From Pecten maximus (Eukaryota), in the NCBI RefSeq assembly GCF_902652985.1, contig NC_047019.1:29450001-29514000 (forward strand): a stretch of 64,000 bases of DNA. The letters are read 5' to 3'. The translations under genes were made by a program, and so were the position numbers. Below are positions 27,466 to 61,366 of this stretch, in pieces; within the stretch, counting starts at the first letter, position 1; each line of letters opens with the position of its first letter. The notes beneath the pieces are model-generated. The model was given only the letters and a program-made list of their open reading frames with translations, searched no databases and was not told the origin of the DNA.

Positions 27466-28024
27466 GTGCGTTTATTTATTTTTTTATTTTAAATATCCAA
27501 CCCCGCATCAAACGAGTGATACAACCTAGTTGTGTAGTTGACAACTTTAACACTAAAATTGGTGATATCTACACATCTAAAACTGGTGGTCGTTAAACCA
27601 TAAAACTGGTGATAATCAAATTGATAAAACCATGAAGCTGTTGATAATTAGACAGAACACAAATGTGTAGTTGATTTCACGATAATTAATTTAATGGTTT
27701 ATGGTCAATCATCACTACAAATAATGTAAATATATTACAATGTTTACAAAACGTCTATGGTTTCTGTTGTACATGTACATGTATGCATTTATTTTTTTAT
27801 GTGGTAATTAATTATTCGGATACGAACTTGGAAATATATATATATATATAAAACACCCCATCATAATGAGTGAAAATAACTTAATCGTACACATGTTATT
27901 ATTTTATATATTAATACAGTCAATGATACTATATTCAATGATAATATATTTAATGATAATATATCCAATGCCGTATTTCGTTTTGTTCGTTCTATTCTGA
28001 CGGTGCAATGGAGCTATTTCCTGT

Positions 28025-28100
28025 TCAAGTCCAATATTACACTCACGGTTGTGGGGTCATGCAAGTCCAATATTACACTCACGGTTGAGGGGTCAAGTGT
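28025..28100 (+). repeat. Short tandem duplication in vestigial intron 2
   Basis: CAAGTCCAATATTACACTCACGGTTG(T/A)GGGGTCA x2. Confidence 0.85.
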
Positions 28101-30392: not shown

Positions 30393-30805
30393 ACAAACCA
30401 CTGATGTGCCACCGGAAGTTACCGCCATCATTTTGGAACAGTTCCTACCGTCCCCCAGCCACCACAAATCCTCTGGGGTCCTCAGGGGGCGGGCCTGGAT
30501 TACTCCCGGGACACGTACTTCAGTCCCTCCTGGTACTCCTTACAGAACAACTGGCCCGTATCGACTGCCCTCCCACGGACACTCGGACCTCGGACAAAGT
30601 CTGTCATACTCGTCCCTAGACACCTCCAGCAAGCTCAGCAATCCCTATCAATCCCTTGTGTTTCCCTCCAGTTATGATTCCAGACCGTCTAAATTTGACT
30701 TTTCAAAAAACATGGATCCCCTCAGCGGATCTAGTGGCTATTACGGACTTTCCAGATTAGGGATGGATTTCCCATCCAAAACCAATATTGAGAGTACTGT
30801 TTCTG
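30393..30805 (+). CDS. vg: vestigial-like coding exon 3 (two apparent 1-bp frameshifts as assembled)
   Basis: TTACAG acceptor, phase 1, continues DKPLMCHRKLPPSFWNSSY (the conserved VGLL 'R.LPPSFWNS.Y' motif). Ends at phase-1 donor CTG|GTAAGT. Needs correction at G5 (30485-30489) and C3 (30555-30557) to be continuous. Confidence 0.88.
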
Positions 30806-31827
30806 GTAAGTATACCGTGTTATAAAACTGGTGCTATAAAGTCATTGTATTCCTCATCTGTGTAAATTCTGTGACTTAATATTCTTAAAAAGAGAGATTT
30901 ATTCGAATTAGGCTGAAATTTAATTTTAGTGTCACGGAGCGTGATGATTCATATACAAAATTAAACCTTAAACAAATGGGGTGAATTTGTTTCACAAATA
31001 GGAAATAAAAATAATTAGTGGTCAAAATATTAGCTTCTTATGCAGTTTGATGGGGGGAAATAATGAAATCACCAAAAAAAGAATATATACATTGAGGAAT
31101 GGAAATTAATTCCTCCCACATAATCGGGGATATTATGCTTTTGACAAAAATATGTTTCCGGGAAAAAAATCGCCGTGGGCCGATTCAGCCCTCCTATGCA
31201 CCACCTCCTTTGTTTAGTTTAAAATCCTGTTTTAGTCCTTTGTTTTGGATTGCGACACCTTGTTGTCGATGTCTACTGAATCAATCTCAATTCTCAATTC
31301 AAGTTTATTCCGAAATCCTTACCGCCCATAGATATACGTGGTTCAATACATTAAACATACAGTCATACATATTTGGAGAGTTTTTCTCATGCCAAGTAGT
31401 AACATAAACATCTTTGTATAACAAACAGCAAACAAAGACATATCAGTACAAGAAAGTTTAGCCTAAGTTAAATTTAAGTTTACAAATTGTTGAATCAATC
31501 AACCAAGTTTGATAAATACATGTCGTGCAACATCATCAATTGCATTTGTATTGTACAGACATACAGACAGACAGATGGATTTTCCAGGGAAGATATTTTG
31601 CATTCAAAATAATATATGAAGTACATATTAATTTTAAAGAATGGATTAAAAGTATTTTCTTTCAGCTAAATCAAACACCATATATTTTCCGAAACTAAAT
31701 CAAAAGGCAAAGTAACATCTTAAGTGTATTCGTTGTGATTTTGTTACATTTTCCATTTTTATCAAACGGATATAATCAACTTCCGCTGTGAATCATAGTA
31801 TTTTACCTTCGCCATTTTATTTTACAG

Positions 31828-31874
31828 GCCTTGAGTACCAACTCCAATCGGCACGACGAGAACTGTGTTGGTGA
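31828..31874 (+). CDS. vg: vestigial-like terminal coding exon 4
   Basis: TTTTACAG acceptor, phase 1, reads GLEYQLQSARRELCW-stop. Similar to the invertebrate Vg C-terminus (GLE..Q....KDLYWF). Confidence 0.85.
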
Positions 31875-38430: not shown

Positions 38431-40604
38431 CATCACACTATCAACATACAACAAAGAATAGCAGATACGTTTCAAAACTGACAGGAATCTTTATGAAATA
38501 TTTTTCTTTAAAAAAAATTATCCAGTGCCTTTCGCCATATTAATAAATAATTTCCCTTCAGTCTGTTTAGAAATGACACGCATACATTTTATAAGAATCG
38601 TACATAGGTAGTTCAATAACAGTAACGGTTTGAGGAAATGATTACAAGATCCATACCCAGCATTTCGCTTTAAATACGATTTTTATATACTTAAATGTAT
38701 TCATATGTCTCTGCTACATCTACAGTACTTGTTAGAAAGATAAGGTATTTATCATTACAATGCTTTTAAATCCTTTTAACAGTTTCTTCTCACATTTTCT
38801 CAGAACTGACGATCAAACGGGATCAATGTTCGAGATTACATCTTATATAACTGTTTGTTCTGCTTTGATGCCACTTTTGTAGTATGTATGCATGGTTTTG
38901 TTGTCTTTAGTGACATTTATCCTGGATTATTGATAATTCTAGTGGCATTTATCCATAAATTTCCTGTCTGAAATCTGAAGTTAAAACATAATTTATGAAT
39001 AGAATAATGCCTTGTGAGTTTATATTTCAGCACATACAACTCTCATTTAAATTTAAACCTGGATCGCACCCAAATGAATAAATAAAACCATTATTAGTGT
39101 CAGGAAAGAAGCCCATGATTCGGACGGGAATATTTATGTTCAGGGGTCTATCTCTCTAGTCAGTAAGCGACACCCTGCAAATTATTGAAAATTTTCCAGT
39201 TAATCTTCCTTCCCTAATACCAATTTGAAAACAAAACTGCGATATTTAATAGACTATGAGTTGAATTATTGAATATCACTTTCCGTTTCCTTCGAGTGAT
39301 ACTGAACCTTAATACTGGACCTGAGTAAGCGAATACACCCATCACGTGCGCACAACTCTCCCAAGGTTCCAGCATACATGCCTTTACAAATATCCTTTAC
39401 AACTTGCTCATAGGGATAATTCAATTTGCACAATTTTCATAATCTTAAAGAAAAAATCTTGTTTTAACACGGCTCAATTGTATTTGAAATCCAGATTAAA
39501 TTTGATGATGTTTTTGACTTCATATAAAGGAGCTCTAAACTCGCTAATATAAGTCCTCTCCGCCGTTATTTATGATAATTTAATTGGTTCCCGAGATAAG
39601 CCTAATTGAATAAGTGCATTCGTATCTTTTGTCAAGTGGATACATCTCGCAAACGGTGAAAGGTCAATTTCTACACACGGAACACTTAAAGGGGTTATCA
39701 TTTGTTATGTAACACCGCTAACCCCCAAAGAAGACGTTGGTAAGTATATCCATATCAGTTTTCACGCTCACGAGCACAAGTCGATAAGAAAATGTATATT
39801 TATTTACATGTAGCGAGGCTATATCTTTATCATTTAAGACACGATTCTAACAGCTCTGTGTGTTATCACGCCGCTCCTACAGGAACATATAGCTACAGAT
39901 CTGTAATATAAAACCGTTTATCTTATCACATTGGTATCCAGCATAAACCTCACAATATGACCCGTGAAAAGGTAACAATTAACGAAAATAATTCATTATT
40001 TTATCTGACGAACGAATCTAGTCATAAATGATCACCTACTAGGTAAAGAGTTTCCTTTAACATAACGAAATCGGTCAGACGCGACATTGGGCAAGTCACT
40101 TCGGTATCCAACATTCGGTAATATAAAAGTCACAGAATTCACTGATGGAAAATAGTAATAATGTAACCACGTGTTTAGCTATTCCACCCTTTGCCAAACA
40201 AAAGCATTCCTATTACCAGATCAATAATGAGAAATAAGTAATTACTCTGAAGTATGTATGGTCACTTAGGGACCTATGTTTTACCATGCTTACATTAATG
40301 TTATGGTTGGTTAATCAAACTCTTTATTATTCATTATTCTCTAGGGTAGAATAAAACTACGAAAAGTAGATACATCGAAAATAAATTAATACAGAAAAAT
40401 ATGGTCCACTTTTTGTGATTTCTGCGAAAAAATATCCTGTTCTATTTACATTTTCGTACTACCGCAAAAAAATAAAAATAAAAAAATAATCAAAAACACC
40501 AAACAAAAACAAAAATCTTTGTTACCTGATAATGAACAATGTAGAAGCGCTTGTATTACATATTTACTTCTTCACATTTTAATACTTTGTCCTTATCAAC
40601 ATTA

Positions 40605-41545: not shown

Positions 41546-41590
41546 TGGTATATATTTACATTTACACTGCAGCCCCACTATATAACTCTA

Positions 41591-41858: not shown

Positions 41859-41949
41859 CAAATTCAACATGAAGCGCTAGACAACAGATCAGATGTTGAC
41901 AACTGATTAAAATAACAAACAAGCAGACTTCTCATATCCACAATGCTAT

Positions 41950-42381
41950 TTATTCTGTGGTCATTGCCGATGCGCTCGTCCCCTCTGCGGTGTTCGCCGC
42001 ATCCATGGAGTTGCCTGAGGAATTAAGATTGAGATCGTCTTGTTCTTTATTATCATTTGCCTGAACTTGAACCTTATTCGGTTCATCATTAGTGTCAGTC
42101 TTAACAATTTTGTCGGCGGTATCATCATGATGATCTATCTGATCTTTGGCCAGACCACTTTCTTCCTCTTTTTTCGCATCACTTTCCAAGAACTTCTCCC
42201 ACTTGGACAACCGTTCCTCTCTCTCTGCTTCCGACTCTTCGATTTCAAACTTGGTTCGTCCGTCCCAATTCTGTGCCATGACACGCCTCTTTGAGAACCA
42301 TCTGTGGTGAAGAGCAGCTATACAACCATCAGCCGCTTCTGCAGTCTTGAAATAAACCATCATCACACCGTCGGGGTGGTT
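41950..42381 (-). CDS. HTATSF1: HTATSF1 terminal coding exon 7 (UHM end with RWF motif, acidic tail)
   Basis: NHPDGVMMVYFKTAEAADGCIAALHHRWFSKRRVMAQNWDGRTKFEIEESEAEREERLSKWEKFLE. Contains the UHM R-X-F motif; ends at TAA. The seven exons sum to 1554 nt = 517 aa + stop. Confidence 0.96.
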   Translation of the reverse strand, partial: NHPDGVMMVYFKTAEAADGCIAALHHRWFSKRRVMAQNWDGRTKFEIEESEAEREERLSKWEKFLESDAKKEEESGLAKDQIDHHDDTADKIVKTDTNDEPNKVQVQANDNKEQDDLNLNSSGNSMDAANTAEGTSASAMTTE

Positions 42382-43011
42382 CTGAAATGACCAAATGAAA
42401 TATTTCATTGATATTCAAATAAACATTACATTTGGAATGGTTAAATGTGCTACAACGCCGACAAAGAATTTTCATGATCGAATCTTGTTACAATATACAG
42501 TACCAACAGTTAAAAGTTTAGCTCTGTAACCACTCTCCAAAAAGGGTGAGGTTCTCTTTTTATCTTAAATAAGTGAATAAGTAACTAATCGCATATCGAC
42601 AAACTGTTTCCGTGTCCAGACTCTCTATATTCCGCAAGTACCACCCAGTTATACATGCGGTCATTTTTGTGAATTAAATATATTTCTATACCATGGGTTC
42701 CATTCAAATCATTTCGGGACAAACAGCGTTTACGTTGTCAGGGATGTTACATCTTCCGGTGTCTAACATGTATCCTTCGGTTAAAACAAAATATACGGTT
42801 GACCAATGGATTGACCTATATATACAATATACATGTACATGTCTAGTTATTTGAATGTGTAATCACTGTTATGAAGTTCATTGTTAATTTAGCACATGTT
42901 AAATCACACTCTCTGGAGACGGCATCGACTGTAGGCTTCCACTGTTTCAATTGTGACGCCATGGCTTCATGATGGCGCATTGTTACATCACCAACGAAAG
43001 AGGTATGTAGT

Positions 43012-43169
43012 AAAAATATCGTCATGTTAGGTTGTTTTCAGTCCGAGAAAGGCTGTTTTTCAAATGCTTTGCAAAATATCTCTCCGAATATATAGCTAAA
43101 ATATCGTCAAGTCAGATTGTTTTCCGTCAGAGAAAAGATAGTTTTTCAAATGCTGTTCAACATATCTCT
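43012..43169 (+). repeat. Diverged ~84-bp tandem duplication in HTATSF1 intron 6
   Basis: AAAATATCGTCA....TTGTTTTC.GTC.GAGAAA.G...GTTTTTCAAATGCT....AA.ATATCTCT x2. Confidence 0.8.
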
Positions 43170-43331
43170 GCAATTAAAGCAATATGACATTTGTATATTC
43201 TAAACAATAGCTTCACAAATCTCATATGCAATTAAAACGTACTATTTACTAGCATCTGTGGAATCGAAGCTTGTTAATATATGATAAGAATGAGAGGAAT
43301 ACAACTGCATTCAACTGTTTTAAAAACTTAC

Positions 43332-43421
43332 GTCGAACATCTTAACATTTTTCACTTCTCCATATCTGCTACATTCATCTCTGACATCGTCTCTGAGATC
43401 ATTAATCAATGTAGGCTCCTC
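43332..43421 (-). CDS. HTATSF1: HTATSF1 coding exon 6 (UHM middle)
   Basis: EEPTLINDLRDDVRDECSRYGEVKNVKMFD (UHM acidic helix, EC.KFG.V-like). CTGCAG acceptor, GAC|GTAAGT donor, 90 nt, phase 0/0. Confidence 0.94.
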
Positions 43422-46400
43422 CTGCAGAGAGAGAACGACAACGTAACATTAATTCAATGTCGAACAAATTGTATGAAAGTAGCACATTAAAAAAACAACA
43501 ACATCGTTATGATTATATTTATCTATGTATCAACTTAATAAAATTAATCAAATCTTTAATAACATAGTTTCCAAATTGATAGACTGTGAATTAGTTTTGA
43601 TTGTTCCCAGTTTTCTCTAAAATGTCTATCAGGATTTAAAAAGGAAGAAGAAGAAAAAAACTCTTAATGTAGACCTGCATGGTACGAAAGGACTTGATAC
43701 TGATATAAATTCAGGAGATGTATTAATTCCGTGATATAGTCAACATGACAAATGTAGGCATAGGATAGTTAGAAGAATATAAAATAAGTTCGTATATTTA
43801 TAACAAGTCCAAATATTCGTACGGATTTAATCGTACCAGGAAAGTTAAAAGTAAATTGAAAATAATACATCCTGGTAGGAAAATATAAATATCCCACAAA
43901 TTATTCTATCTGAGACCGACAACTGGTGAGGTTACAGATATCCTGACAGAGATATAGAAAGACCTATATCGTATTCATGTTCTCTAGTAAATAGTTACCA
44001 TTCCCCACTCCCCAGATGTACATTCCACGTACCCCGGGAATACGGCACGTATAACTAATAGTAGTAGCATAGCATGTATGTACGGGTTAGAATGATCTGA
44101 GGGAAGGGAACGTCACATTTGTTACGGAGTTACTCGGGGTATTCCGAGATTTGTGACCTTTATTATATCTGGGTATGATTTATATGTGCAGTCATGAATT
44201 AACTGGTCTTCTTAGTATTCCAAAAAGCATGAAATATGTCATAACTTGTAACTGAATATCTTACCGGTAGAACAGAAGCGTTTACCAAAAACTAGCATAA
44301 TAAATAAATAATAACAAGAGGAGGAACCGCGACTGTGACAATAGCAATGTGGCAGTTCATGTCGTCGCTCTAGTACATGTGAAAATACAAACATAAAGCA
44401 ATACCCTCTACACGTAGTTTATGTCGTTTATTTATGTGAAATGTGTTTCATTAATCAAAGTCAACCTAGGTTGTATATATGTAAACATAGGACACAGGTA
44501 TGTGCCGCCGTCGACATGATTAGTACACCACACACGTATGAGAAAAACAAAAATATGAGAATGGGCCACAAATACAAAGGCGTGTGTGACGTTGATGATG
44601 AAATTTCACTTAAAAAAGAAGTAATACCGAAGTGTAAACAAACTCGAAATTCTACCTCAAAATCGATGAAACAAGACAAAACAAACAACCGGAGATTCAA
44701 AACAGACATCCTTGAAAAAATATAAATAGTGGCAGGTGTTCCGCAAGAGTTAGCGTTTTCTGATTCCTCAACAACACCGGAATATAAATCTAGGTGACAT
44801 CAAAGTAACATTCATATCACGAGATACAACACCAGACAGACATACAATAGAATATCCAGGTATACGAAAGAGCATCGAACACCTCGACCTTAATATCAAA
44901 CAACAAAAAAGGAACATTTCTTAATGAGGCCAGAAATCGACCATAAATCATCATCATGATCTTCCTCAACCTGTGTCGTCACTCGAAACAATGTTACACG
45001 TTTTATCAGTCAGCAATAAACATCTATTATGGAATTCGTCGTATTGAAAACAAATAGATGACATGCAGTATATATAGATTCAACACAAAAAGTTTAATAT
45101 TCACTTTTTCGCTAAAGGTTGTATTAGCGTATAGTTCTTCAACCTTTACCACAAGTTTCTGATATATAACCATCACTGTACTATACAACGGTAAAGCGCA
45201 AATGTGAAACATGTAGAATTATATGATACAAAATGGGTGTGTTCACATGTACTATTATCACCAATATTCAGAACCATTGTTTGAGGTACTCATTTTGTTG
45301 GGATGATTTATAGCTACAAATGCATGTTTTATGGGTCTACATATACATGCAAACAAAAGGATATCACGAATTGTTGCATTTCTACTTATCACTCAAACCA
45401 AAAAAACCAATAGAATGTAATAAAATATCTATGAACACAACACTTAAAACGACTGCTTTTCTTGTGGAGCAACATATCGCAATGGGTTTTAGATAAGAAG
45501 CAGACATTTGCCGTTTATGTATTTCAGTAACAGATGAAATCGTACGACTGGAATACCTATTAATATATACAATAAAACCCAGTTTTGTTTGATTCTGTTT
45601 GCGACACAACCCATCACTTAGCCTCCCGCTGCTTACCGTTCTTCCATAAAACCAAACATCGCATGCTTGTGCGGACTTGTATTCACTTACACGTCCTATG
45701 AAGCCAATTACAATTCTATCACGGCAAATTCCTTCACGTGAGTCTACATATCAATTTGCTAACAACCTCATGCGCATTCAGATGTGAAATGGACGCATTA
45801 ATGTTTTAGGGGACACCAAAAATGCGAAAAGCTTGCGCAGCACTATGCCCCTGTTGGGATGGAAATGACAAAATTCCAGCATGCAAAATACCACGGCCAT
45901 TTTGCGACATCTTTCTTACATAAATCAAATAATTGAATTACCTTCTCCCAGTATTGTGTAATTTGTTTTTTGAAATCGGACCCTTGGTAGCATTTGTCTT
46001 GGAGCAGACGACACGTGTAGCTCCCCGACCTGACAGCCTCGTGCAGATGGCATGCATACCTGGGATTACAAGCGCGAGCAATAATGGTTTTTTGACGGAA
46101 CCCGATCCTGCCAATTATTGTGGATATTACATCTAGCCTCTTTTCCATTCATACATAATGGCTGACTTTTAACCAATTTTCTTACAGTTTGCTCACGGAA
46201 ATATTTTCCTTGACAGCGACATATCTTTCTCGACCTGTTCTCCAACTGGATCCCGGTTTTGAAGTCTGTTCTCCATGTGCAGTTGTGTCGAAAATCGGAT
46301 TTATTTTCTAACCCAACAGTTAATTACTTCAATTACTATTAACGTCCATTAAAGCAGCATTCTTGGTTATAATGAAGTTGCATAAAAAGAGCACTGTCCC

Positions 46401-46459
46401 TTCGCATTACACGTGTTTGCGTCTTTGTACATGCCGAGTTGCACCTAATGTTTGTCTTT

Positions 46460-46697
46460 TACGCGTCTGTTGTACCTGCTGTTTGTGTGTATGTCAAGTT
46501 CTACCTCATGTTTGTGCCATGTGAAAGTCGTGTTCCACCTGATGTTTTTATCTTATGAATGTCGTGTTTCAACTGATGTTTTTATCTCGTGTATGTCGTG
46601 TTCCACCTGCTGTTTTTGTTTTGTTTATGACGTGTTCGACCTGATGTTTTCTGTCTTGTGTATGTCGTGTTCCACCTGATGTTTTTGTCTTGTGTAT
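46460..46697 (+). repeat. ~33-bp degenerate minisatellite
   Basis: TGTATGTCGTGTTCCACCTGATGTTTTTGTCTTG-like units, ~6-7 copies. Confidence 0.8.
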
Positions 46698-47269
46698 GCA
46701 TATAAATGTTTTTGATTAATTCGATATGGTATATCATTTTATCCAGTATCTAACAATATTTACAGTTACCCTCATACCGGAAGAGATTCACATTGAAAAA
46801 ATAAATTATATGTCAAACATTAATTAGCAATTAAAAGGACCTGTAATTTATTCAGTTCAAAGCGTTTTCAAATACCAACCCACTAATTATAATGCATCAG
46901 TAAAACATTTTCAATGAGATTATATTATCCGAAGTAATGGTTTGATATTGGAAATATATAAATATAATATAGGGAAGGGGAAGAGAATGTACCAGGCATT
47001 ATTGTCAAATATAAGGTCATATCAAATAATATTAGAAAAAAAAGAAAGTGAATTTAAGATAAATTATATACCAAATAAATAACCCCATTTCAAACACGAG
47101 AAAATAATTTTATATTGTATATCACATTAGTAAATATATACCAAATTGATAACCGAACGGTATATAAATTACTATACACTGTGTCGGATATCATAAACAG
47201 ACTAATGTTCTTATATTCTATTTCAGTTAAGTAAAATTATGAAACTCAATAGCATACACAAAATAAATA

Positions 47270-47730
47270 GCCATATATTGTATACCAGATAAATGACTCA
47301 ATACATCAAACCAGATAACCCTATATTGTATACGAGATTAATGGCTCGATATTTTAAACCAGAAAAAAAATCATATATTGTATACCAATTAAAATGACTC
47401 AATATTACAAACCAGAAAAATAACCTTTTATTGTATACCATATAAATGACTCAATATTTTAAACCAGTAAAATATCCGAAGATATTGTACACAAGATAAA
47501 TGGCTCAATATTATAAATAAAACAGATAACTCTACATTGTATACAAGATAAATGGCTCAATAATATATATACCAGACAAATAACCCTATATTGTATACCG
47601 ATTCAAATGTATACCAGATAAATGACTCCGTATTATAAAGCAGACATATATTGTATACCAGATACCTGGTAAGTTACCCAATATTATAACAAATAGTCCT
47701 ATATTGTTTATCAATTACGTGATTCAATGT
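47270..47730 (+). repeat. Degenerate ~50-60-bp repeat
   Basis: ATATTGTATACCAGATAAATG(A/G)CTCAATATT..AAACCAGA, ~7-8 copies. Confidence 0.75.
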
Positions 47731-50700
47731 TATATTCCATCAAATAACCAAAATATTATATTAGATAACTATCAATACCAATGGCTATAAAGTTACATGT
47801 AATATAACTGCTATTTTGTATGTTGGTATTTTCCCCGCTAACACACACATAAGTTTTGAAACCTTTCATCCTTCATGACTCTCAGAAATGGACATTAAAA
47901 TTTCACGTGTTTACAGCCAAGGGCCTCCCTTTACGACAAAGCCAATAACTTATACTAACCACAGACATAGGACCACCTTTCACAATTTTATGTCACTTTA
48001 TTTCTGTAATTAAGAAATACACATTAAACTAAATAACAAAATAAGCACATTTCATGGTGCAATTTCAAAATCATTTGCACATAGAAGTTAATTCGATACA
48101 CCCAGGAATTTTCTCATTTCTGAAAAAACTGTAACTTCCCAATCCAAATTGGACAACTTTTCCGTGTCATTTTCACGATGCCGTATCGTATCCACAATTA
48201 ATTCAAAACTTGCCATAGACATTTTTTACATATGACAAGTTACTTTGATGTGGGTAGGAGCCAAATTTACACAGTTACACAAGCGAAATTGTCTCCCAAT
48301 GGGGTCTAGGTAATTGTGGGGATGGCCACAGTAGTCAAGCGCCCTTCATCTCCTTAATTTACATCTGAGAAAAATCTAAATTTAATAACTCCCTTTCTGG
48401 GCTTTAGGTAATTGTTATTGGGTCCCTAAAACATACCCTAAGTAATATCAACGCTACAAATCTACACATATAGACAAATTATTCGCTTACAAACAGGACT
48501 GGTTTCATAGGTACAGGGGGTAATATCCTCAAGTAGTCTAATACAGTACTGGAATTAATTCACAACTTGGGGTTAAGTAGCGATACACAGTAAATAATCG
48601 TCCATTTAAATCTTACTTGTGATGTCTCATTAAACATAAGCCCAGTTACAAGTAACCCCCACAGATCTCGCTATCCTTACTTTTTCTTTTTCTCTGCGGC
48701 CAGATTAAACATCTAACTTCACCTCCACGGTAAGAAATCTACCTAGAGCTTATGTGCAGTTAATAATTACATTTCGGGACAAGATATAGTGCAAACTCTG
48801 TTTTTCCCACACTAAAATTAGACTTACAACTGTTCCGAACCAGCTTTGGAATGATTAATTAGTTTTTAATGTTCCCAGAAAAACAAAATATGTGCCATTC
48901 AGAGTAGATTTCAGTAAAATAAAAATGCTTATCCTACACGTTACTAACTACTCTGTAAGTCGGTTGCCTCATAATTGATTACAAAACTACACTGGGCAAA
49001 TCCGCTGAACATTTAAACAATTTATATAATAACAAATCTGAACATTAATTTGGATATCATTCTATCTCATTATTTTTATTATAATTAAACATGATTTTTT
49101 TCTGACAATTTTTTAGGAGAAATATTCTTCAGATGATATAAACACATGCCTTATTAAATTAAATACATTTTACAGTAATACCTCATCTAAAACACTGCTT
49201 AACTAGTAAATTGTTGCACGTACATTGATTTGGCAAGAAATATGATGACTGTTTTTTTCAACACAAAAATAATTTTACAATAAACAGCAAAGATTTCTGC
49301 AAAATTTGAAATAATTGTATTTGAAATAGGAATTTCTAATTAAATACATCTTATATGCGGTTAGACCCGACGAAACCGTACCAGTGTACGGTTTGACGTT
49401 AGACATACGTTGTTAGTTAAAAAAATGACATTGTTAGAAACAACGATAAACAAACTGAGTGTATCATATATATATATGACGTGGGGATATGTTTGTTTAA
49501 TTCTAGTTTAACATTCATTATTCCGTACATAATGTATACATTTTTGAGAGTGTTTTGTAAAATTGATTTCGAGCTACATTGTAATATTGTCTTCGCTTAT
49601 TATCAATTTTAAAAGAATAGATTTTTCATCACCTCAGAAAATAAGTGCTTTCATTTTCATATGAAGTCATTTCGTGTAAAGTAATTTTAAAAATTTAAGT
49701 CATTAATTAGAATAAACATTAGAATGGTTAAACACGTTAAAAATAGCACCTCCAATCTGCAAAACTAAAATTCACACCAAAAGATAAAACTTCCTTAGGT
49801 GCCAAATTCTATTACATATAAATACAAAATTTTCTGGACAAATCTGGAAACAATGTTTTACGATATATATATTAAATTTAACATATTTAATTATAATTTA
49901 TTTTATTTCCTCGTTAAACAGGTATTTCATGTACAGCAAAGTCGTTACTGTAAAAATACCATTTAGCCATTGGATTTTGTCATTGTTCGTGAATGGTTAG
50001 TCAGTACTACAGACCAATATATATAGACAACAGGAATGCGGACAGGCAAACTGTTTTGGTTGAATGTGAAACATTATACAAAGATGTTTACTAACTAACT
50101 GTGAAACCATGTAAATGATATGGTTGTTACTGTCCGAGAAAGCGAGACGAATTGGGGAGTAGTTCGGACGGTGACAGTTTCTTTATCGCAGATTCTCTAC
50201 AGCAGGGTAGGGGTTCTCAATGAAGCAAACTAAATATCATATGACCAACTATCAACAAAACAACACCACACAAAATATCATCAACCCCTTCCCGTGAAAG
50301 AAACAAACTCACATACTCAAATACCAGCCATCAGATCAGTTAAAACCTCAGAAACACTTAATAGCTTATTCTAAATCTAATAAAAAAATTAAAAACAGAT
50401 TCAAACTAAGTATGTAGAACTCTTGGACTCGGACATTCCTTTCAAATTGGGAAAGGAATTAATATAAACTTGCTTAAGCTTGTTTTCTATTTCTAAATTA
50501 TAAAAATGTATGTATATTTGAATTTTGAATAAAAATATTGTTAAACTAATAAGGCATTGCAAAGTAATATAGCTATATGGTAGCGCATTGATACATGTAG
50601 CTACTCCGGGATCCTATAACTAGTAAGTCCTATACCTACACCAAACACGTGTTTACCGTTAATATCTTATGCCGTACAGTCAGGAACTGAGTTGTGCTAT

Positions 50701-53029
50701 TCAAATGGGAAGTGAACATGAGTTTAGTAAGTCTACATACTACGGAGACAGGTATTGCTCCGATGTCAGAGAATGCTCGCGTCATACACGGTGTTCCCGT
50801 AATGACTTGAAGTCTACTACCAACTTACCAAGCCATTGTGCAGGTGGTGGCGTAACACACGTACTAGTTCATATTATTACATAAAATTAACATAATATCT
50901 GTTGCATAGGCAGGTGTTATGTCCTTGACCAGATGCTAAATCCCATGTCAACCCTACAAATATTCCCATCAATACCCGCACCATTGAATATTTAACGCCT
51001 TGTTCTCATACCGATAGCAACGTTTATAACAGCAGGTCTTACTGACACTAGTTAAATGTCATTGTTCCCCACATCAACCAAGATTTAGCACCAAAATACG
51101 TATCTGTTTCAATTAATCATTTTCTGGCTAAAATCCCATGTGATGATAAACACCCTGGTGTTTTGCATATGTCCACATAAAATAAAATAAATAAATATGG
51201 ATCGGGATCACTTAAACAACGAATCACACGACGTGACAAGCGTCTAACGAAAATATCACGAATCGTATCGCCAGTCAGGGCGCGGGATCTCTGGTCTAGA
51301 GGAGGAGGGACATGGGAATCGAAGTTACTTTAGGTGAATTTGGACCTATCACGATGTTTTAAAGCGATTGTTAGGCGTTATGGTAAGATCAAAATTTCCT
51401 ATTTCAGTTTAGGAACTACCTGAATTAAATGAATTTTAGAACAGATGTCAGAACTTTCAGATCTGTTTTATGGATCCCGCCCCCATTTTTCGTGATATTC
51501 TTCAGATAACGATAATAATGTTATCTGATGGCATACATGGGTTTTTCTTGAGAAGGAAAGAAACAATGTGCTACCTGTATTATTTTACCGTTTTTACATA
51601 ACTGGTATAAAGTCTTTGGGCATAAAGAAGACTTTATGACGATTGACTGGAATTTTTATAAGAATGTCGCTCGCAAGCTTATTATCAAAGTAATCAAAAT
51701 TCGTGATAATATCAACGACGGTCGTCTATTTCCTCGATCTATTTGGTGTTACTGATCTCCAATATCATATCCCCCATTTTCAAGTGTTTGCTTGGAAATT
51801 TAAATCTCGGCCGAGTCCCCAAACCTCGTCTCTGTGGTGAAGCCGTATCATGTGGGAGGTAGGTAATTTGATCAACACACCAATAGACAAGTTTTGGGTG
51901 TATTCATTTCAAGATGTTTTCCTTAGATGTAAACCAGGTACTTGACAAGGTTAGTTTGTCACCGCTAACGGTGCTGATGAGATGCCACTTGAAACAAGTA
52001 GCCTCCCTTGGTGTAGAAATTCCAAGCTGTTCAGGGAGGTGCAATTGATATGGGAAACTGCATATCTATAATGTCATTGGACAATATCAAAACCATTCCG
52101 CATTCTTAGTTTTTCAAACGACTGACTTTTGCTTTGTTTATGTTTAGACCACATACCACACTTCTTTATAATATTGAACGCAACTGGCCACTTTTATGGG
52201 AACTGAATTCAGTATATAACACCGAGTGTGCCTTATTTTTATTTAGTAGCATTCCAGTAAGAAGGTTGTTTGATCTTTGTAATTAGGTGGTCAGAATTAT
52301 ACTGTGTGTACGTATACTAGTACAGCTATGCTAAAACGAATAATTAGTACGAATATTAATATAGGTACTTACAGCTACATCGTTATATGTATGTATATAT
52401 ATAAATTTGAGGTAGATAAAGAATTAATGATATCAAAAACATAAAGAAAAAATGTTCGAAAGCTTTAGTACACAGGAAAGTTGATCCAAATGATATATGC
52501 TGGTTTGAATTTTCTGTTGAATTTACTAGAACATTCTAATTCAGAAGAGACTCGATATTCAAACTAAGAATAAGGATAACCACTTCCATCAGATTTATTT
52601 CTGTATATAATCGGTATAAGTGATTTGGAGAGAAAATATCAGTATTTAATCGTTATTTATCCAGATACACCTAAAAAGTTCCGCCCTAGGATAACATGAA
52701 TATTAAAAACTATCTTATTGGTTTATCATCTCTAACGTAGAAATAAAGCATTAAATCTTGTGGTTATAAAGACTAGCCTATCAAAAACCTCTTAGTAAGG
52801 TTTTCAGCCAAACTATATAAACTGTCATTGTTTTCAGTATGACGTGATATCCCCATTAATTCTTGCACCGATCACGAGTCGCTCATTTAATTTTCTATGC
52901 TGTTTCACATGTGAAGAAAACATTTATGATTTCAGTCTGCCCACTTCATATTCTTGTTATTTCGGGAAATGGCGACACTTTTGTTGTTTTGGGTTTTTTC
53001 TTTTGAATCAACGTTAAGCTTGAACTCCA

Positions 53030-53146
53030 ATGTCTTTTGTACAGTCCTTTGTCCTTGTGTGTGGAGGATGTCATACAGTTGTCTGTTGTATAGTCCTTTG
53101 TCCCTGTGTGTGGAGGATGTCATACAGTTGTTTTTGTACAGTCCTT

Positions 53147-53181
<35 letters not shown>

Positions 53182-53682
53182 AGGATGTCATACAGTTGTC
53201 TTTTGTACAGTCCTTTGTCCTTGTGTGTGGAGGATGTCATACAGCTCTTTTGTACAGTCCTTTGTCTGTGTGTGTGGAGGATGTCATACAGTTGTCTTTT
53301 GTACAGTCCTTTGTCTGTGTGTGGGGGATGTCATACAGTTGTCTTTTGTACAGTCCTTTGTCATTGTGTGTGGAGGATGTCATACAGTTGTCTTTTGTAC
53401 AGTCCTTTGTCATTGTGTGTGGAGGATGTCATACAGTTGTCTTTTGTACAGTCCTTTGTCATTGTGTGTGGAGGATGTCATACAGTTGTCTTTTGTACAG
53501 TCCTTTGTCTGTGTGTGGAGGATGTCATACAGTTGTCTTTTGTACAGTCCTTTGTCCCTGTGTGTGGAGGATGTCATACAGCTCTTTTGTACAGTCCTTT
53601 GTCTGTGTGTGTGGAGGATCTCATACAGTTGTCTTTTGTAAGTTCCTTTGTCCTTTTGTGCGGAGGATGTCATACAGCTGTC
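53030..53682 (+). repeat. 49-bp minisatellite (~13 copies) with embedded (TG)n at ~53151-53179
   Basis: Unit GTCTTTTGTACAGTCCTTTGTCATTGTGTGTGGAGGATGTCATACAGTT. Confidence 0.96.
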
Positions 53683-54291
53683 TCCTATTTCATGTTATTT
53701 CGTGTTACATTTCTAAACATATTTGTTATAAAAATGTCACATTGATATTAACAGATTTTCTAGAGCACATATTGTGAATATCTTTGGACAGGTCTATTTC
53801 GGTGCCGATCTCAGGAATTGATACACCAGGTGAACCTGTGTTCACAACGTATTGAACATGACATCAATGGTGGCTCATGGTGGAGGGAGTTGTAAAGGAT
53901 ACACATCACAGGTAATATATCCCAACAAAAGTAAGGCATACTCGACATAGTTTCTAGATAGCTTTGTACACAATCAGTATATCACACTGATTTTAAGTAT
54001 ATAGTAGCCTCATTGTCAAGTAAGGGACAATTATCTTGATAACCTGTATCAACAACATTTACTGATCCCAATGGTGAACTTTCACTGTCAATTTTCCCAT
54101 ATTATTTTTATCACATCACTGATAATTGATAGACCAGTTATGACAACAAACACATCTTAGGATTACAGAAGTGTAGTGAACAGGTAGTGTGTATAAAGAA
54201 GAAAAGGTGAAAACGTTTACACTGTAATCTGTACAGACAAGAAAATACAAAAATCTGTGAAAATAATCAGCAAGTCATTACTTAACCTCTT

Positions 54292-55866
54292 CACAAGTCA
54301 TGAGTGTCTATCTCTACACAAGTCATCAGTGTCTACCTCTACACAAGTCATCAGTGTCTACCTCTACACAAGTCATCAGTGTCTACCTCTACACAAGTCA
54401 TCAGTGTCTACCTCTACATAAGTCATCAGTGTCTACCTCTACACAAGTCATCAGTGTCTACCTCTACAGAAGTCATCAGTGTCTACATCTACACAAGTCG
54501 TCAGTGTCTACCTCTACACAAGTCGTCAGTGTCTACCTCTACACAAGTCGTCAGTGTCTACCTCTACACAAGTCGTCAGTGTCTACCTCTACACAAGTCG
54601 TCAGTTTCTACCTCTACACAAGTCGTCAGTGTCTACCTCTACACAAGTCATCAGTGTCTACCTCTACACAAACCGTCAGTGTCTACCTCTACACAAGTCA
54701 TCAGTGTCTACCTCTACACAAGTCATCAGTGTCTAACTCTACACAAGTCGTCAGTGTCTACCTCTACACAAGTCATCAGTGTCTACCTCTACACAAGTCA
54801 TCAGTGTCTATCTCTACACAAGTCATCAGTGTCTACCTCCACACAAGTCGTCAGTGTCTACCTCTACACAAGTCATCAGTGTCTACCTCTACACAAGTCA
54901 TCAGTGTCTACCTCTACACAAGTCATCAGTGTCTACCTCTACACAAGTCATCAGTGTCTACCTCTACACAAGTCATCAGTGTCTACCTCTACACAAGTCA
55001 TCAGTGTCTACCTTTACACAAGTCGTCAGTGTCTACAGCTACACAAGTCGTCAGTGTCTACCTCTACACAAGTCGTCAGTGTCTACCTTTACACAAGTCG
55101 TCAGTGTCTACCTCTACACAAGTCATCAGTGTCTACCTCTACACAAGTCATCAGTGTCTACCTCTACACAAGTCGTCAGTGTCTACCTCTACACAAGTCG
55201 TCAGTGTCTACCTCTACACAAGTCATCAGTGTATATCTCTACACAAGTCATCAGTGTATATCTCTACACAAGTCATCAGTGTCTACTTCTACACAAGTCA
55301 TCAGTGTCTACTTCTACACAAGTAATCAGTGTCTACTTCTACACAAGTAATCAGTGTCTACCTCTACACAAGTCATCAGTGTCTACCTATACACAAGTCA
55401 TCAGTGTATATCTCTACACAAACCGTCAGTGTCTACCTCTACACAAGTCATCAGTGTATATCTCTACACAAGTCATCAGTGTCTACCTCTACACAAGTCA
55501 TCAGTGTCTACTTCTACACAAGTCGTCAGTGTCTACCTCTACACAAGTCGTCAGTGTCTACCTCTACACAAGTCATCAGTGTCTACCTCTACACAAGTCA
55601 TCAGTGTATATCTCTACACAAGTCATCAGTGTCTACCTCTACACAAGTCATCAGTGTCTACCTCTACACAAGTCATCAGTGTCTACCTCTACACAAGTCG
55701 ACAGTGTCTACCTCTACACAAGTCATCAGTCTCTACCTCTACACAAGTCATCAGTGTCTACCTCTACACAAGTCATCAGTGTCTACCTCTACACAAGTCA
55801 TCAGTGTCTACCTCTACAAAAGTCATCAGTGTCTACCTCTAGACAAGTGATCAGTATCTACCTCTA
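54292..55866 (+). repeat. 25-bp satellite, ~63 copies
   Basis: Unit ACAAGTC(A/G)TCAGTGTCTACCTCTAC. Confidence 0.99.
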
Positions 55867-57243
55867 ACATTATTATATTGACAGGAAAATATATTACCTG
55901 CAGGTGCATAATGATTTAATACTATATTGATGAATTAAAGCAAAAAAATGTGCTTAATCCCTGTTGAGGCAAGAACAACATTAAAATCGTGAATATTTTG
56001 GTAAAATAAGACAAACAGTTCAATTTGAGGTTTCTTTTAAGGATGATTGACAGTAAAAAGTGATTTTCAATTCCATTATTCACATTTTAGCAAATGTATA
56101 CTGTGCTTTAGAACACCTAATTCATTAAACAAAATCCATGTTAGGGTATACTTTCCCCTACTAAAATCTAGGTTAGGATGTATATGTGACATTTTCACTA
56201 ACCTCAATCCTGGTAGGGATATGTATATATACTGATTTCATTTTCCACAATCCAAGTAGGGATATGTACATATGCTAATATCCTCAAATAGGGAAATATA
56301 TATGAAATTTTTTCCTAACTAGAATTCAGATGTGCATATTTCATTTCCGTCAGTCTAAGTAAGAAAAGTGTAACAGATATATACAGCGTGAAATTTAATC
56401 ATTTTGAATTACAAAATAATTCTAATTTTAATTTTTGTGATTAGCGTTTATTGTATCTTTTAAGCAATCTGTTCCAAGGGAGATAACCAAAATTAAACCA
56501 TACAAGAACGAAAAACCTGATATTGGAAGGGAGGCAACCCAATCAAAAACGCATTGTATAATGGTGTAACTTCCATAATATTTACACAAGTACTAGCTTC
56601 CAAAAAAGTTAAGAGGACTACCAACAGCATTATCTATGAGTAAGCATTATAGTTAAGTTTGAGATAGATGGGTATGTTGAAGCTTTTGAAGTCAGTGGAG
56701 TTTCTCTCATATGCATATCTCTCCCAAGTCTATCAATTTCCGACCATAACCAAAAAAATCAGCACCACTAATCATGCGATAATAGTACAATGTCCAACAA
56801 TCCTGCTGGAACAATTGTATCTCTGATTTTATCAACCACATGATGTTTTTATTGCAAATAATTTCCCCTACTACAAATGATGACATCACATACTGAAGGT
56901 AACCAATCACGTAGTATAAGCAATGCTAGCGAGGCAATCAAAGTAGATAGATCATTCATATACATGTGCAATCCCCACAATATGGCTGGTACAAAGACCA
57001 AAACTAATGCTACCATTCCTGGATGGTAGTGAAACCTTTCTCTGATGTTAAAAGTATTAATGTGTGATTTATGACATCAAGGGAATTTCGTTTTGTTGAG
57101 TGTATCAAGTAACTTAAGAATGTTCAGAATTTATTAAATACATACCTTGAAGATGAGTATTATCACTGCTTACCTAAAGGCTCAAAAATATCTTAATATA
57201 TACCAATTACTACATAGTTACAGTATATACTGTCATAACTTAC

Positions 57244-57352
57244 TTCAAAATCATTTGGATCAAACATGTTCTTTAAGACAACAACTTTCTCATTTTTGGG
57301 TCGAACAGAACCTTGTCCAAGCTCTTTTTTCTCTGGTCTCCAGTCAAACAAT
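57244..57352 (-). CDS. HTATSF1: HTATSF1 coding exon 5 (start of UHM/RRM2)
   Basis: LFDWRPEKKELGQGSVRPKNEKVVVLKNMFDPNDFE. Phase matches exon 4; phase-0 donor GAA|GTAAGT. Confidence 0.95.
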
Positions 57353-58012
57353 CTGTGTAATTATAACACATATACATTAAATAACATTTCAATTAGTTAA
57401 CTAACTAGTGCCATCAATCTGACAGAACTAGTGAGTGGGATCAAAGAAATGACGAGATATCAAGCTGATACATCAAGCCGACATGTGATAAATCTTGGAC
57501 AAAGCACCAGTACAATCGGAAAATTAAATCAAAATAATGGTTGTGATATCGGAAAATGAAGACCTCAGGTAATGAAAACCATGGTATGAATTGTATGAGT
57601 GAATAAGTAAGTGTATTGGAGTATTGGCTTTATGAAATCTGATCATAAACAAATACAAATCTTATTATTACATGACAGTGAATTACAGAGGAGGAACAAC
57701 TACCTCGAGCTCTATGAAACCATATTAGAGTTGACTGTCCATGGCCAACTCACCAGTTATCCATATTCTTATGTAATGTGATTGTTTTATATTTTTTCTT
57801 TTCTCATAATTTGATAAATTTCTGTCTGCAATAGTGTTATATATCAACTCATTAAATCAAAATGCATCTAATGAACACTCATTATCAGAGATAAACCATT
57901 TTTCCACTAAGGGGAACAACTCAAATACATTTTTCCATGAACTCTAATAACAAAATTTCACCATGCATTTAGAATTTTTTCATCATTTGGCATTTCATAA
58001 ATATGTTCTTAC

Positions 58013-58182
58013 TTTTCTTGTTTCTCCTTGAACTTCCGCTTGTCTTTGTTGCTGAGTTTTTTTCTCCGTTTGCTGGGATCAAAATCTCCCTTCATAGTGA
58101 ACTTGGCCAGCTCTACCTTGATCTTATGACCTCTGAGCTCAGAATCATCCAGAAACTTCCTCGCAAGTTCCACAGACTCAAC
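58013..58182 (-). CDS. HTATSF1: HTATSF1 coding exon 4 (RRM1 C-part and linker)
   Basis: VESVELARKFLDDSELRGHKIKVELAKFTMKGDFDPSKRRKK...KQEK. TTCAG acceptor, phase-2 GTAAG donor. Confidence 0.96.
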
Positions 58183-58377
58183 CTGAACACAGTATAAAAC
58201 TATTCCATGTAAAAGTCTTACCAAAATTCACAACACTTATAATTCACAATGGTAAGTGATACATTACATTAGTATCAAAATGATAAATAGTTCTCTCCCC
58301 TGTTGTGAAAATGTGATATACAAGAAAACAGCTCTTTACTCAGGTTCAATATAAATTCCTCGCATTTCTCCCCTTGT

Positions 58378-58462
58378 GAGGTGGTAAATTAAAGTGATTA
58401 CAGACTTGCCTTTCACCTTAGCAGTCTGTGTTTGATTCCCTGATCGTATGTGAAAGGTATAC
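58378..58462 (+). mobile_element. Possible decayed tRNA-derived SINE head
   Basis: ..GCCTTTCACC..GCAGTCTGTGTTTGATTCCCTGATCGTATGTGAAAGG contains a B-box-like GTTTGATTCC (GTTCGATTCC after CpG decay). Confidence 0.3.
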
Positions 58463-58675
58463 TTATATTCATCTTTAGTCCTAAGAAATAAGGTAAATCT
58501 TCATACCTTACAGTAAACACCTTTCAGTAAACAATCATCAATTTCCCTCCCCATATCACCTACTCATCTATCCATTCTAGGATAATGTTCCTTCTTTTCA
58601 TCAACTGTAAGTCTGTTCTGTTTAGGGTTTCCCTAACAGGTATATTAAGTCCTACTGATCTTTTGTCCCCTTTGG

Positions 58676-59830
58676 ATACCTTACCCTGGTATACCTTACC
58701 CTGGTTAACCTTACCCTGCCATACTTTACCCTGGTAAACCTTACCCTTGTAAACCTTATCCTGGTAAACCTGACCCTGGTATACCTGACCCTGGTATACC
58801 TTACCCTGGTATACCTTATCCTGGTATACCTTACCCTGGTAAACCTTACCCTTGTAAACCTTATCCTGGTAAACCTTACCCTAGTAAACCTTACCCTGGT
58901 AAACCTGACCCTGGTAAACCTTACCCTGCCATACCTTACCCTGGTATACCTTACCCTAGTAAACATTACCCTGGTAAACCTTACCCTGGTATACCTTACC
59001 ATGTTTAACCTTACCCTGCCATACTTTACCCTGGTAAACCTTACTCTGCCATACTTTACCCTGGTAAACCTTACCCTGGTATACTTTACCCTGGTATACC
59101 TTACCCTGGTATACCTTACCCTGGTAAACCTGACCCTGGTAACTACCGTTTAACCTTACCCTGGTAACTTTACCCTGGTAACCTTACCTGCATACTTATA
59201 CCCTGGTAAACCTTACCCTGGTATACCTTATCCTGGTATACCTTACCCTGGTATACCTTACCCTGGTATACCTGACCCTGGTAAACCTTACCCTGGTAAA
59301 CCTGAACCTGGTATACCTTACCCTGGTAAACCTTACCCTGGTATACCTTATCCTGGTATACCTTACCCTGGTATACCTTATCCTGGTATACCTTACCCTG
59401 GTATACCTTATCATGGTATACCTTACCCTGGTATACCTTACCATGGTAAACCTTACCCTGGTATACCTTACCCTGGTAAACCTTACCCTGGTATACCTTA
59501 TCCTGGTATACCTTATCCTGGTATACCTTATCCTGGTATACCTTACCCTGGTATACCTTACCATGGTATACCTTACCCTGGTATACCTTACCTTGGTAAA
59601 TCTTACCCTGGTATACCTTACCCTGGTAAACCTTACCCTGGTAAATCTTATCCTGGTATACCTTACCCTGGTATACCTTACCCTGGTATACCTTACCTTG
59701 GTAAATCTTACCCTGGTATACCTTACCCTGGTAAATCTTACCCTGGTATACCTTACCCTGGTATACCTTACCCTGGCAAACCTCATCCTGGTAAATCTTA
59801 TCCTTATATACCTTATCTGATAAATCTTAC
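58676..59830 (-). repeat. 15-bp satellite (~75 copies) starting at the HTATSF1 exon 3 donor
   Basis: Plus-strand unit CCTTACCCTGGTA(T/A)A; the minus strand reads CCAGGGTAAGGT(A/T)TA. Confidence 0.98.
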
Positions 59831-60039
59831 CTTTATATAACAGCAGCGCCCATCACCTTTCGGATTTCCTTCACTATCCTTGTAAAGTTTGAGCTTGAGA
59901 CCTCGGCTGAGTGGGTCAGCCATGATGAGGCCGTATTTGCCCATCAGTTCTCTGAATTCGTCGTCAGTGATATCCAGTGGCAGTCCAGACACATATACAT
60001 TGGTGTTCTTTGTTTCATCAACATCAAACCAAGAAGGAG
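59831..60039 (-). CDS. HTATSF1: HTATSF1 coding exon 3 (RRM1, N-part)
   Basis: WFDVDETKNTNVYVSGLPLDITDDEFRELMGKYGLIM...KLKLYKDSEGNPKGDGRCCYIK. CTGTAG acceptor, AAG|GTAAGA donor. Confidence 0.97.
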
Positions 60040-60660
60040 CTACAGAGACAAGGCAAAATAGAATGTACATATAACTTACAATTTACATTGACTCAAATTT
60101 AAATAGTTTATATATGAAGTAAGATGAAAATCTTTAACATGAACATTTAGTCATTGACCCAAGGAATTTAAGCATTGTCACAAAGCATGTTCATATACTA
60201 ACTTTGAAATCCAAATCAAAGACTCCGCAGTAAATTATCAATAACTAATATACATGACTGCACCATTGAAATACACTTTAAGTAATGGCAGAAAAGAAGG
60301 TTCAGAACATGCTTAGAAATGGTAGGCAAGTCAGCATGATATCGTTTTGGTACAAGTTCATTTTAACTACACAGCAGTGCCCTTGAATAATTAGCCTGAT
60401 TTGATTTATTTGTCATTTACCATTATCTTTAAAGGCATTTACCTAGGAATTGGTCAGTTATTTATGTGAACCAGTCAGATAGCTAACAGGAAGCCTGAAG
60501 TTAGTACATGGTGTGTGTATATGTCATCACAAATTTCAATTTTTCTCAAATGGTGCAGAGAAAATATGACAGTATAATGGAATCAAAGCCCTTGGATTTT
60601 GAATATATTCAATTCTCTGACAGACTATTAAACTCAAATTTATCAAACATTTTTAATTAC

Positions 60661-61078
60661 GTTCTTCTGGCTTTTTGGGTTCAGATGCCTTTTTTCGTTT
60701 CTTTCCCTTCTTTTCCTGCTGACTTTCATCTGCTTCCTTTTCCTCTGAGTTTTCTTGGTTGTAATAATCATATCCACAATATTCTACTGCTTCTTTGTGT
60801 CCATAGTAGTATGCATAGTAATCAAAATATTTCTTCCTGTACTCATCACTGTTTTCATCAACCTCCTCCTCACTTCCTTCCTCTCCACTGCCCTTGGCTT
60901 CCGTACCAGGATCCCTCTGACCACCATAGTACTTCTTACAGTACTGATCATACCATTCCTTGTACTCAATGCTGTTGATGTCTGCTGGAGGAGCTGGGAA
61001 ATCTGAAGTATCAGGCCTAGGGCTGGCCTCTGAAGCACCATAGCTCATCTGATATCGGGCTATAAAATCATCATCAAT
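60661..61078 (-). CDS. HTATSF1: HTATSF1 coding exon 2
   Basis: TTATAG acceptor. IDDDFIARYQMSYG (human ITEDFIATYQANYG), then an acidic/Tyr-rich segment and basic KKGKKRKK (NLS-like). Phase-1 donor C|GTAATT. Confidence 0.92.
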
Positions 61079-61240
61079 CTATAACAAAAGAAATGTAAAA
61101 GTAAATCAATTGACCCTTCAATGAATCAGTTAAGCTCTAAAAAGATCTATTAATACTATAATTTTTTTCTTTTTCTTTTTGGTATATATATTCCACAGAA
61201 AGAGATCTGGTCAAAATATCAAAAATTTAGATAGACCTAC

Positions 61241-61366
61241 CTTTGGAAACCATGCTTGTTTCTCATCATTCCATTCATACTCGGTCCCATCCTCATCAAC
61301 TTTGGTTTTTCTCTTTTTCTGTTCTTCCTCTTGTGCCAGCTGTGCCTCAAAATCAGATTCCTCCAT
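61241..61366 (-). CDS. HTATSF1: HIV Tat-specific factor 1 homolog, coding exon 1
   Basis: MEESDFEAQLAQEEEQKKRKTKVDEDGTEYEWNDEKQAWFPK matches the Tat-SF1 N-terminal F..QL...E and YEWD..K.AWFPK motifs. Phase-0 donor AAG|GTAGGT. Missed by the ORF track. Confidence 0.93.

What the first reader, a model, noticed from the sequence alone, without database searches (positions are those of the whole stretch)
43422..57243. 13.8-kb intron splitting the HTATSF1 UHM: likely bystander intron holding vestigial enhancers
Seen: the other coding introns of HTATSF1 are 0.16-1.6 kb, but intron 5 is 13.8 kb. Only ~3 kb of it is tandem repeat and no nested gene is visible. Unique blocks such as 45600-46330, 48240-48420 and 48560-48900 are dense in TAAT cores. 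They include a TCF-type CTTTGAT (48243-48249) and a Su(H)/RBPJ site TTCCCACA (48804-48811). Known: fly vg is driven by Notch/Su(H), Wg/TCF and Sd inputs. Inference: the intron is enlarged because it hosts cis-elements for the neighbour. Single motif hits are not significant by themselves.
Basis: partly seen in the sequence, partly recalled or inferred. Interest (0 to 1): 0.7.

Follow-up and report, generated by a model that had tools for sequence, protein, structure and literature searches.

The report
Long bystander intron beside vestigial genes
In a scallop, a housekeeping splicing gene beside two vestigial developmental genes has a 13.8-kb, mostly single-copy intron with a few slowly changing patches that likely hold control switches for those neighbours, but the DNA motifs first cited as proof occur only at chance levels.

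Summary
The intron is real: 13,822 bp, GT-AG, splitting the UHM; the other coding introns are 162-1,648 bp. It has 2,821 bp of tandem repeat, is otherwise nearly single-copy where searched, and shows no Pfam or Rfam match. The motif argument fails: TAAT, TCF and Su(H) counts are at chance. Other evidence supports a genomic-regulatory-block reading. Both Vg_Tdu matches in the genome lie here, and HTATSF1-VGLL is a catalogued bilaterian synteny block (limpet, sea urchin, Ciona, another scallop). New here: CpG depletion, the trace of gene-body methylation, stops inside this intron (about 53-54 kb). The last exon and its flanks are undepleted (0.95), unlike 13 other housekeeping genes (0.19-0.58) but like ATXN10 beside Wnt7 (1.06). 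Against: intron and spacer diverge equally overall, a non-bystander gene has a 10.6-kb intron, and my written prediction failed for GMDS and SCAPER. No enhancer activity or target gene is shown. Verdict: a likely new example of a known kind.

The parts
43422..57243 (-). HTATSF1 intron 5, 13,822 bp, phase 0, splits the UHM
   Evidence: a 1,893-nt RNA contig has a length that fits exons 1-7 joined (the joint itself was not seen)
43422..53030 (.). Distal intron: CpG o/e 0.88, nearly single-copy, alignable to organism B over at least 4,608 of 9,609 bp
53684..57243 (.). Proximal intron: CpG-depleted (0.32-0.35 in its two non-tandem parts) like the rest of the gene body; holds a 1.6-kb 25-mer array
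   Evidence: not searched against the genome and no reads laid
53019..54035 (.). Support interval of the CpG change point (best 53857); overlaps the tandem array 53031-53683
45241..46107 (.). Low-divergence patch 1 (42 substitutions in 867 bp); candidate regulatory element; also holds a candidate 160-nt cassette exon at 45691-45850
48142..48688 (.).
51778..52114 (.).
39164..40035 (.). Low-divergence patch in the spacer between vg and HTATSF1 (45 in 872 bp)
41950..43421 (-). HTATSF1 exons 7 (41950-42381) and 6 (43332-43421), not CpG-depleted (22 observed, 25.2 expected)
57244..61366 (-). HTATSF1 exons 1-5, CpG-depleted (14 observed, 43.9 expected)
25995..31874 (+). Vestigial-like gene A, tail to tail with HTATSF1; exon 3 has two frameshifts in the assembly
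   Evidence: Vg_Tdu E 1e-15

Best explanation
The distal 9.5 kb of this intron, with the last two HTATSF1 exons, likely belongs to the regulatory landscape of the two neighbouring vestigial-like genes, and its slow-changing patches are likely enhancers for them. Shown: the gene layout, the single-copy intron, the patches and the CpG switch. Taken from a published table: the linkage in four bilaterian species. Inferred: the patches are under selection; they act on vg rather than on HTATSF1; regulatory chromatin keeps germline gene-body methylation out of this part; elements in the intron would resist deletion and breakage and so help keep both the length and the linkage.
For: HTATSF1 plus VGLL genes form block 9042, 'Bilateria novel', in Lottia, Strongylocentrotus, Ciona and Mizuhopecten (PMC8851819 file 4). 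Both Vg_Tdu matches in G000 lie here (48 of 48 candidates scored). One organism-B contig bridges exon 7, exon 6 and the intron to 46581, and other pieces reach 52114. Divergence differs among 14 non-coding pieces (chi2 56, df 13, p 2e-7); three intron pieces are at 4.7-4.9%, like the exon-6 piece (4.7%), against a median of 8.7%. Interspersed repeats cover 63 of 11,001 unmasked bases against a median of 6%. Synonymous CpG use is 14 of 131 in exons 1-5 and 22 of 79 in exons 6-7 (p 0.002). Last detected exon +/-1 kb: 0.95 here, 0.19-0.58 in 13 of 13 other housekeeping genes, 1.06 in ATXN10, which lies tail to tail with a Wnt7-like gene and also switches within a 9.8-kb intron.
Against: Motifs are at chance, and TAAT is rarer in low-divergence pieces (16.0 per kb) than in the others (21.8). 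Pooled divergence is the same in intron (7.3%) and spacer (7.7%). Only one close species was compared, using the longest listed pieces. LMBR1, 2.6 Mb from Hedgehog here, has a 10.6-kb intron with an undepleted interior, and the exon hits of one chaperonin gene leave a 9-kb gap. Undepleted CpG is the default across most of the 264 kb around the window. My prediction written failed for 2 of 2 known bystanders, GMDS and SCAPER. 17 of 115 loci are as repeat-poor. HTATSF1 is absent from the supplement of the 156-pair GRB study. The human pituitary enhancers described in PMC12890961 lie in or distal to VGLL1; no passage seen puts one in HTATSF1.
Confidence: 0.55

Rival explanations
1. Neutral bloating: the intron grew by old insertions now decayed past recognition, the patches reflect local mutation rate and alignment bias, and methylation fades in a long intron for reasons unrelated to vg.
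For: Long introns occur in a non-bystander gene. Intron and spacer diverge alike. The genome search skips very common words. Low divergence tends to go with higher GC (rho -0.41, p 0.14).
Against: In LMBR1 and the chaperonin genes depletion resumes after long introns and reaches the last detected exon. A twofold drop in divergence over 300-900 bp is large. The linkage is ancient.
Confidence: 0.22
2. The patches serve HTATSF1 itself, for example as a frame-breaking 'poison' cassette exon of the kind many splicing factors use to regulate themselves (recalled knowledge).
For: A candidate 160-nt cassette with a stop (45850-45691, consensus donor) lies in patch 1, and 6 of 16 GTRAG donors fall in the patches, which are 16% of the unmasked intron.
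Against: Only 1 of 4 candidate acceptors with a downstream donor is in a patch, about chance, and the filter is crude. This reading does not explain the similar patch in the spacer or the CpG switch.
Confidence: 0.12
3. The elements are regulatory but act on another gene, such as the pectinacetylesterase-family (Notum-like by recall) gene about 28 kb past the HTATSF1 start, or they belong to a hidden non-coding transcript.
For: PAE match at L003:6557-6820. vg gene A has frameshifts in the assembly.
Against: The undepleted part is continuous with vg and is separated from the PAE gene by the depleted HTATSF1 5' half. No Rfam match.
Confidence: 0.08
4. Assembly artefact: the length comes from a misjoin or from false inserted sequence.
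Against: A second sample of the same species has depth in all 30 bins of 33100-53000, and organism B bridges exon 7 to 46581.
Confidence: 0.03

Closest known systems
Genomic regulatory blocks with bystander genes (Isl-Scaper, Otx-Ehbp1; Irimia et al. 2012, PMC3514665)
   Same: A developmental gene next to a housekeeping gene, deep linkage, one very long intron in the bystander, patches of conservation.
   Different: No enhancer test here; conservation measured against one close species only; the pair was not found in the searchable GRB supplement.
Wnt7-Atxn10 block (called a hypothesised GRB in PMC8851819)
   Same: In this genome it has the same tail-to-tail layout, a 9.8-kb intron, and the same loss of CpG depletion over the last exons.
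   Different: Its intron is 40% tandem repeat with 1,156 bp of interspersed repeat, and the partner is 42 kb away, not 10 kb.
Synteny block 9042, HTATSF1-VGLL (Robert et al. 2022, PMC8851819, file 4)
   Same: The same gene families; two VGLL genes beside HTATSF1 in Mizuhopecten and Ciona, three in Lottia.
   Different: It is only a table entry in what I saw; no intron or regulatory analysis.
Amphioxus demethylated elements inside widely expressed gene bodies (Marletaz et al. 2018, PMC6292497)
   Same: Regulatory DNA lacking methylation inside a housekeeping gene, in some cases thought to act on a neighbour.
   Different: Those are local and adult-specific; here a stretch of about 11 kb with two exons lacks the evolutionary CpG loss, which points to the germline.

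Membership tests
Genomic regulatory block (bystander intron) | Developmental regulator next to an unrelated non-developmental gene, with ancient linkage | tested here: met
   block 9042 in four species
Genomic regulatory block (bystander intron) | [quoted passage not shown] | tested here: met
   13.8 kb against 0.16-1.6 kb; not specific, as LMBR1 has 10.6 kb
Genomic regulatory block (bystander intron) | Short, highly conserved non-coding regions in that intron | tested here: inconclusive
   three patches near 5% against 8.7% in one close species; pooled intron equals spacer
Genomic regulatory block (bystander intron) | Enhancers in the intron that act on the developmental gene | not testable with these tools
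   no chromatin, contact or reporter data
General signature: bystander 3' exons escape gene-body methylation | Seen in known bystanders still facing their partner | tested here: not met
   1 of 3: ATXN10 yes; GMDS and SCAPER no
Poison-exon autoregulation of a splicing factor | Conserved stop-bearing cassette exon that is spliced in | tested here: inconclusive
   one candidate in patch 1, at chance frequency; contigs cannot show rare forms
Repeat-filled intron | Most of the length is recognisable repeat or transposon | tested here: not met
   2,821 bp tandem; non-self matches only near 44650-44990 and 50440-50550 in 43422-53030; no Pfam match; 53031-57243 compared only with 1.2 Mb of fetched DNA

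The most novel reading that the evidence does not exclude
The edge of a developmental gene's regulatory domain can be read from bare sequence in a mollusc: where the domain reaches into a transcribed housekeeping gene, germline gene-body methylation has long been excluded, so CpG depletion stops mid-gene. HTATSF1-vestigial and ATXN10-Wnt7 would be two cases of an ancient bilaterian block whose border is written in CpG content.
Probability: 0.25. Interest if true: 0.65.

Novelty: new member of a known kind. Interest (0 to 1): 0.42.

Why it matters
It names a testable regulatory block for the vestigial-like (TEAD cofactor) genes in a mollusc and narrows the candidate enhancers to three patches of 0.3-0.9 kb. 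If the mid-gene CpG switch marks regulatory domains, a genome-wide scan could map them without chromatin data in invertebrates that methylate gene bodies. The bystander concept itself is known, and nothing here shows function.

Tried and rejected
Motif enrichment (TAAT, TCF, Su(H), TEAD, E-box, MEF2, GATA, Fox): no convincing excess. Nested or decayed coding sequence: intron ORFs gave only weak or repeat-driven Pfam matches and none in read-through frames. A duplicate of exons 6-7 that could act as an alternative 3' end: none in 264 kb. Run X11 had no cover at 48175-48824, which first looked like non-conservation; X12 from the same sample covers it, so the hole means nothing. RNA contigs (X15, and X6 of guessed kind) gave little or no intron cover, including at the candidate cassette; contigs cannot show absence. 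The idea that the unmethylated state is special to vg was dropped, since it is the regional default. The general bystander signature failed for GMDS and SCAPER; the other PF16363 genes named in that prediction were not fetched. A search for a full-length SCAPER gave only fragments, so its last exons were placed by recalled short motifs. The ESM Atlas gave no result for the 101-aa ORF in patch 1. Earlier scan notes held nothing relevant.
Full report
Setting. The window is G000:C5:29450001-29514000. Exon 7 matches at 100% a 517-aa protein labelled HIV Tat-specific factor 1-like, Pecten maximus, so this is a scallop. HTATSF1 runs on the minus strand in seven coding exons. A vestigial-like gene lies tail to tail, 10 kb from its stop. 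A second vestigial-like gene lies head to head with the first, about 18 kb left of the window; these are the only two Vg_Tdu matches in the genome.

The observation. Intron 5 is 13,822 bp, follows aa 344 and splits the UHM. An RNA contig of 1,893 nt lies with its bases 65-647 on exon 7 and the 3' UTR; the remaining 1,246 nt fit exons 6 to 1 (1,122 nt) plus a leader, though the joint was not seen. Tandem repeats cover 2,821 bp. Genome searches of 43422-53030 found non-self matches only near 44650-44990 (16 of 17 matches) and 50440-50550 (39 of 40 scored, of 198 candidates), and none in 47620-50430 or 50560-53030; that search skips very common words. Against 1.2 Mb of fetched DNA, 63 of 11,001 unmasked bases matched; 17 of 115 loci were as low, and 15 of 65 CpG-undepleted ones. 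Pfam and Rfam found nothing. TAAT, CTTTGAT and TTCCCACR are at chance.

Conservation. Two runs of one sample of a related species, organism B, were laid on the window. One contig bridges exon 7, exon 6 and the intron to 46581, so the intron exceeds 3 kb there, and other pieces reach 52114. The tools list only the longest pieces: 8 for X11, and 16 of 160. I used 14 non-coding pieces, and dropped one low-depth piece (50048-50303) and four that overlap others. Substitution rates differ (chi2 56, df 13, p 2e-7). The pieces 45241-46107, 48142-48688, 51778-52114 and the spacer piece 39164-40035 are at 4.7-5.2%, against a median of 8.7% and 4.7% for the exon-6 piece. These tests are after the fact and gaps were not counted. 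Pooled, intron (321 of 4,373) and spacer (202 of 2,635) do not differ.

Linkage. File 4 of PMC8851819 lists block 9042, 'Bilateria novel', with HTATSF1 and VGLL genes in Lottia, Strongylocentrotus, Ciona and Mizuhopecten (the file was cut when stored, so species may be missing). Human HTATSF1 and VGLL1 appear in the same Xq26 gene lists; that they are direct neighbours is recalled. HTATSF1 has no hit in the supplement of PMC7530604. The supplement of PMC3514665 could not be read and may list the pair.

The CpG switch. CpG o/e is 0.32 in exons 1-5 and the proximal intron, and 0.87-0.89 in the distal intron, exons 6-7 and intron 6; the change point is 53857, with support 53019-54035. Synonymous CpG use confirms it (14 of 131 against 22 of 79). 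In 43960-44424, CpG sites change no faster than other C and G sites between the two species (3 of 34 against 9 of 145), as expected without germline methylation; the numbers are small and there is no methylated control. That CpG depletion records gene-body methylation is established knowledge; oyster methylation forms a plateau along gene bodies (PMC4378273). Nine chaperonin loci, an LMBR1-family gene on C4, LMBR1, GMDS and SCAPER all stay depleted around the last detected exon (0.19-0.58). For the first ten that exon is the last profile match and may not be the true last exon; one reaches only position 304 of 490. ATXN10, tail to tail with a Wnt7-like gene, repeats the HTATSF1 pattern: exons 2-5 have 14 of 40.1 expected, exons 6, 7 and 9 have 21 of 29.9, with a 9.8-kb intron between (p 0.03).

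Limits of that signal. Undepleted CpG is the default over most of the 264 kb examined. The interior of the 10.6-kb LMBR1 intron is undepleted too, though Hedgehog is 2.6 Mb away. I wrote down beforehand that GMDS and SCAPER should show the switch. Both still face their partners, a forkhead gene 56 kb away and Islet about 160 kb away, and both are depleted to the end. So 1 of 3 known bystanders shows it. One after-the-fact reading is that the switch appears only where the domain enters the gene, not where a large spacer holds it; this was not tested.

Mechanism. Most likely (0.55) the distal intron is part of the vg regulatory landscape, and its constrained patches are enhancers that help keep the intron long and the genes linked. 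Constraint, target and methylation exclusion are inferred. Rivals: neutral bloating (0.22), elements serving HTATSF1 such as a poison exon at 45850-45691 (0.12), another target or a hidden transcript (0.08), artefact (0.03).

Papers seen. PMC8851819: passages and supplement rows. PMC3514665: passages and sections 8-9. PMC7530604: passages and a supplement search. PMC6292497, PMC4378273, PMC12890961 and PMC9601528: passages only. In the listings of ten searches I saw no paper that treats HTATSF1-VGLL as a regulatory block or describes a mid-gene methylation edge in bystanders; the library lacks most subscription papers.

Verdict. It is a likely new member of a known kind; interest 0.42.

Noticed in passing
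L019:1396-1767 (G000:C5:29431396-29431767, minus strand): A second vestigial-like gene, head to head with the one in the window and about 45 kb from it; its third exon reads in one frame.
   Followed up: partly
window 30393-30805: Exon 3 of vg gene A matches its paralogue in three successive frames, so it has two frameshifts, near 30490 and 30555, at short G and C runs. Assembly error or a real break; untested.
   Followed up: partly
window 41549-41880: A very high-copy interspersed repeat overlaps the HTATSF1 3' UTR (summed contig depth about 70,000 against about 35 nearby).
   Followed up: no
window 61367-62500: CpG depletion continues about 1 kb upstream of the first coding exon, and the RNA contig has 124 extra nt, which suggests a non-coding first exon near 62400-62500.
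   Followed up: no
L003:6557-6820, minus strand: Pectinacetylesterase-family exon (Notum-like by recall) about 28 kb past the HTATSF1 start, inside a long CpG-undepleted stretch.
   Followed up: no
G000:C7:44096900-44331048: Two Wnt genes in tandem, the nearer Wnt7-like, followed by ATXN10 tail to tail; ATXN10 shows the same mid-gene CpG switch.
   Followed up: yes
G000:C2:11270692-11301270 and C2:13911865-13938376: Hedgehog and LMBR1 share a contig but lie 2.6 Mb apart, so that known block is broken here.
   Followed up: partly
G000:C9:34669400-34832500: About 160 kb, CpG-undepleted beyond 34680 kb, between the SCAPER 3' end and Islet; a candidate regulatory desert.
   Followed up: no
window 10203-14462, 20806-23707, 58676-59815: Large tandem arrays (22-mer x193, 40-mer x72, 15-mer x76); the last fills most of HTATSF1 intron 3.
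   Followed up: no
L013:5965-8595: An 877-aa open frame ending in a BIR domain, in a CpG-depleted island left of the second vg gene.
   Followed up: no
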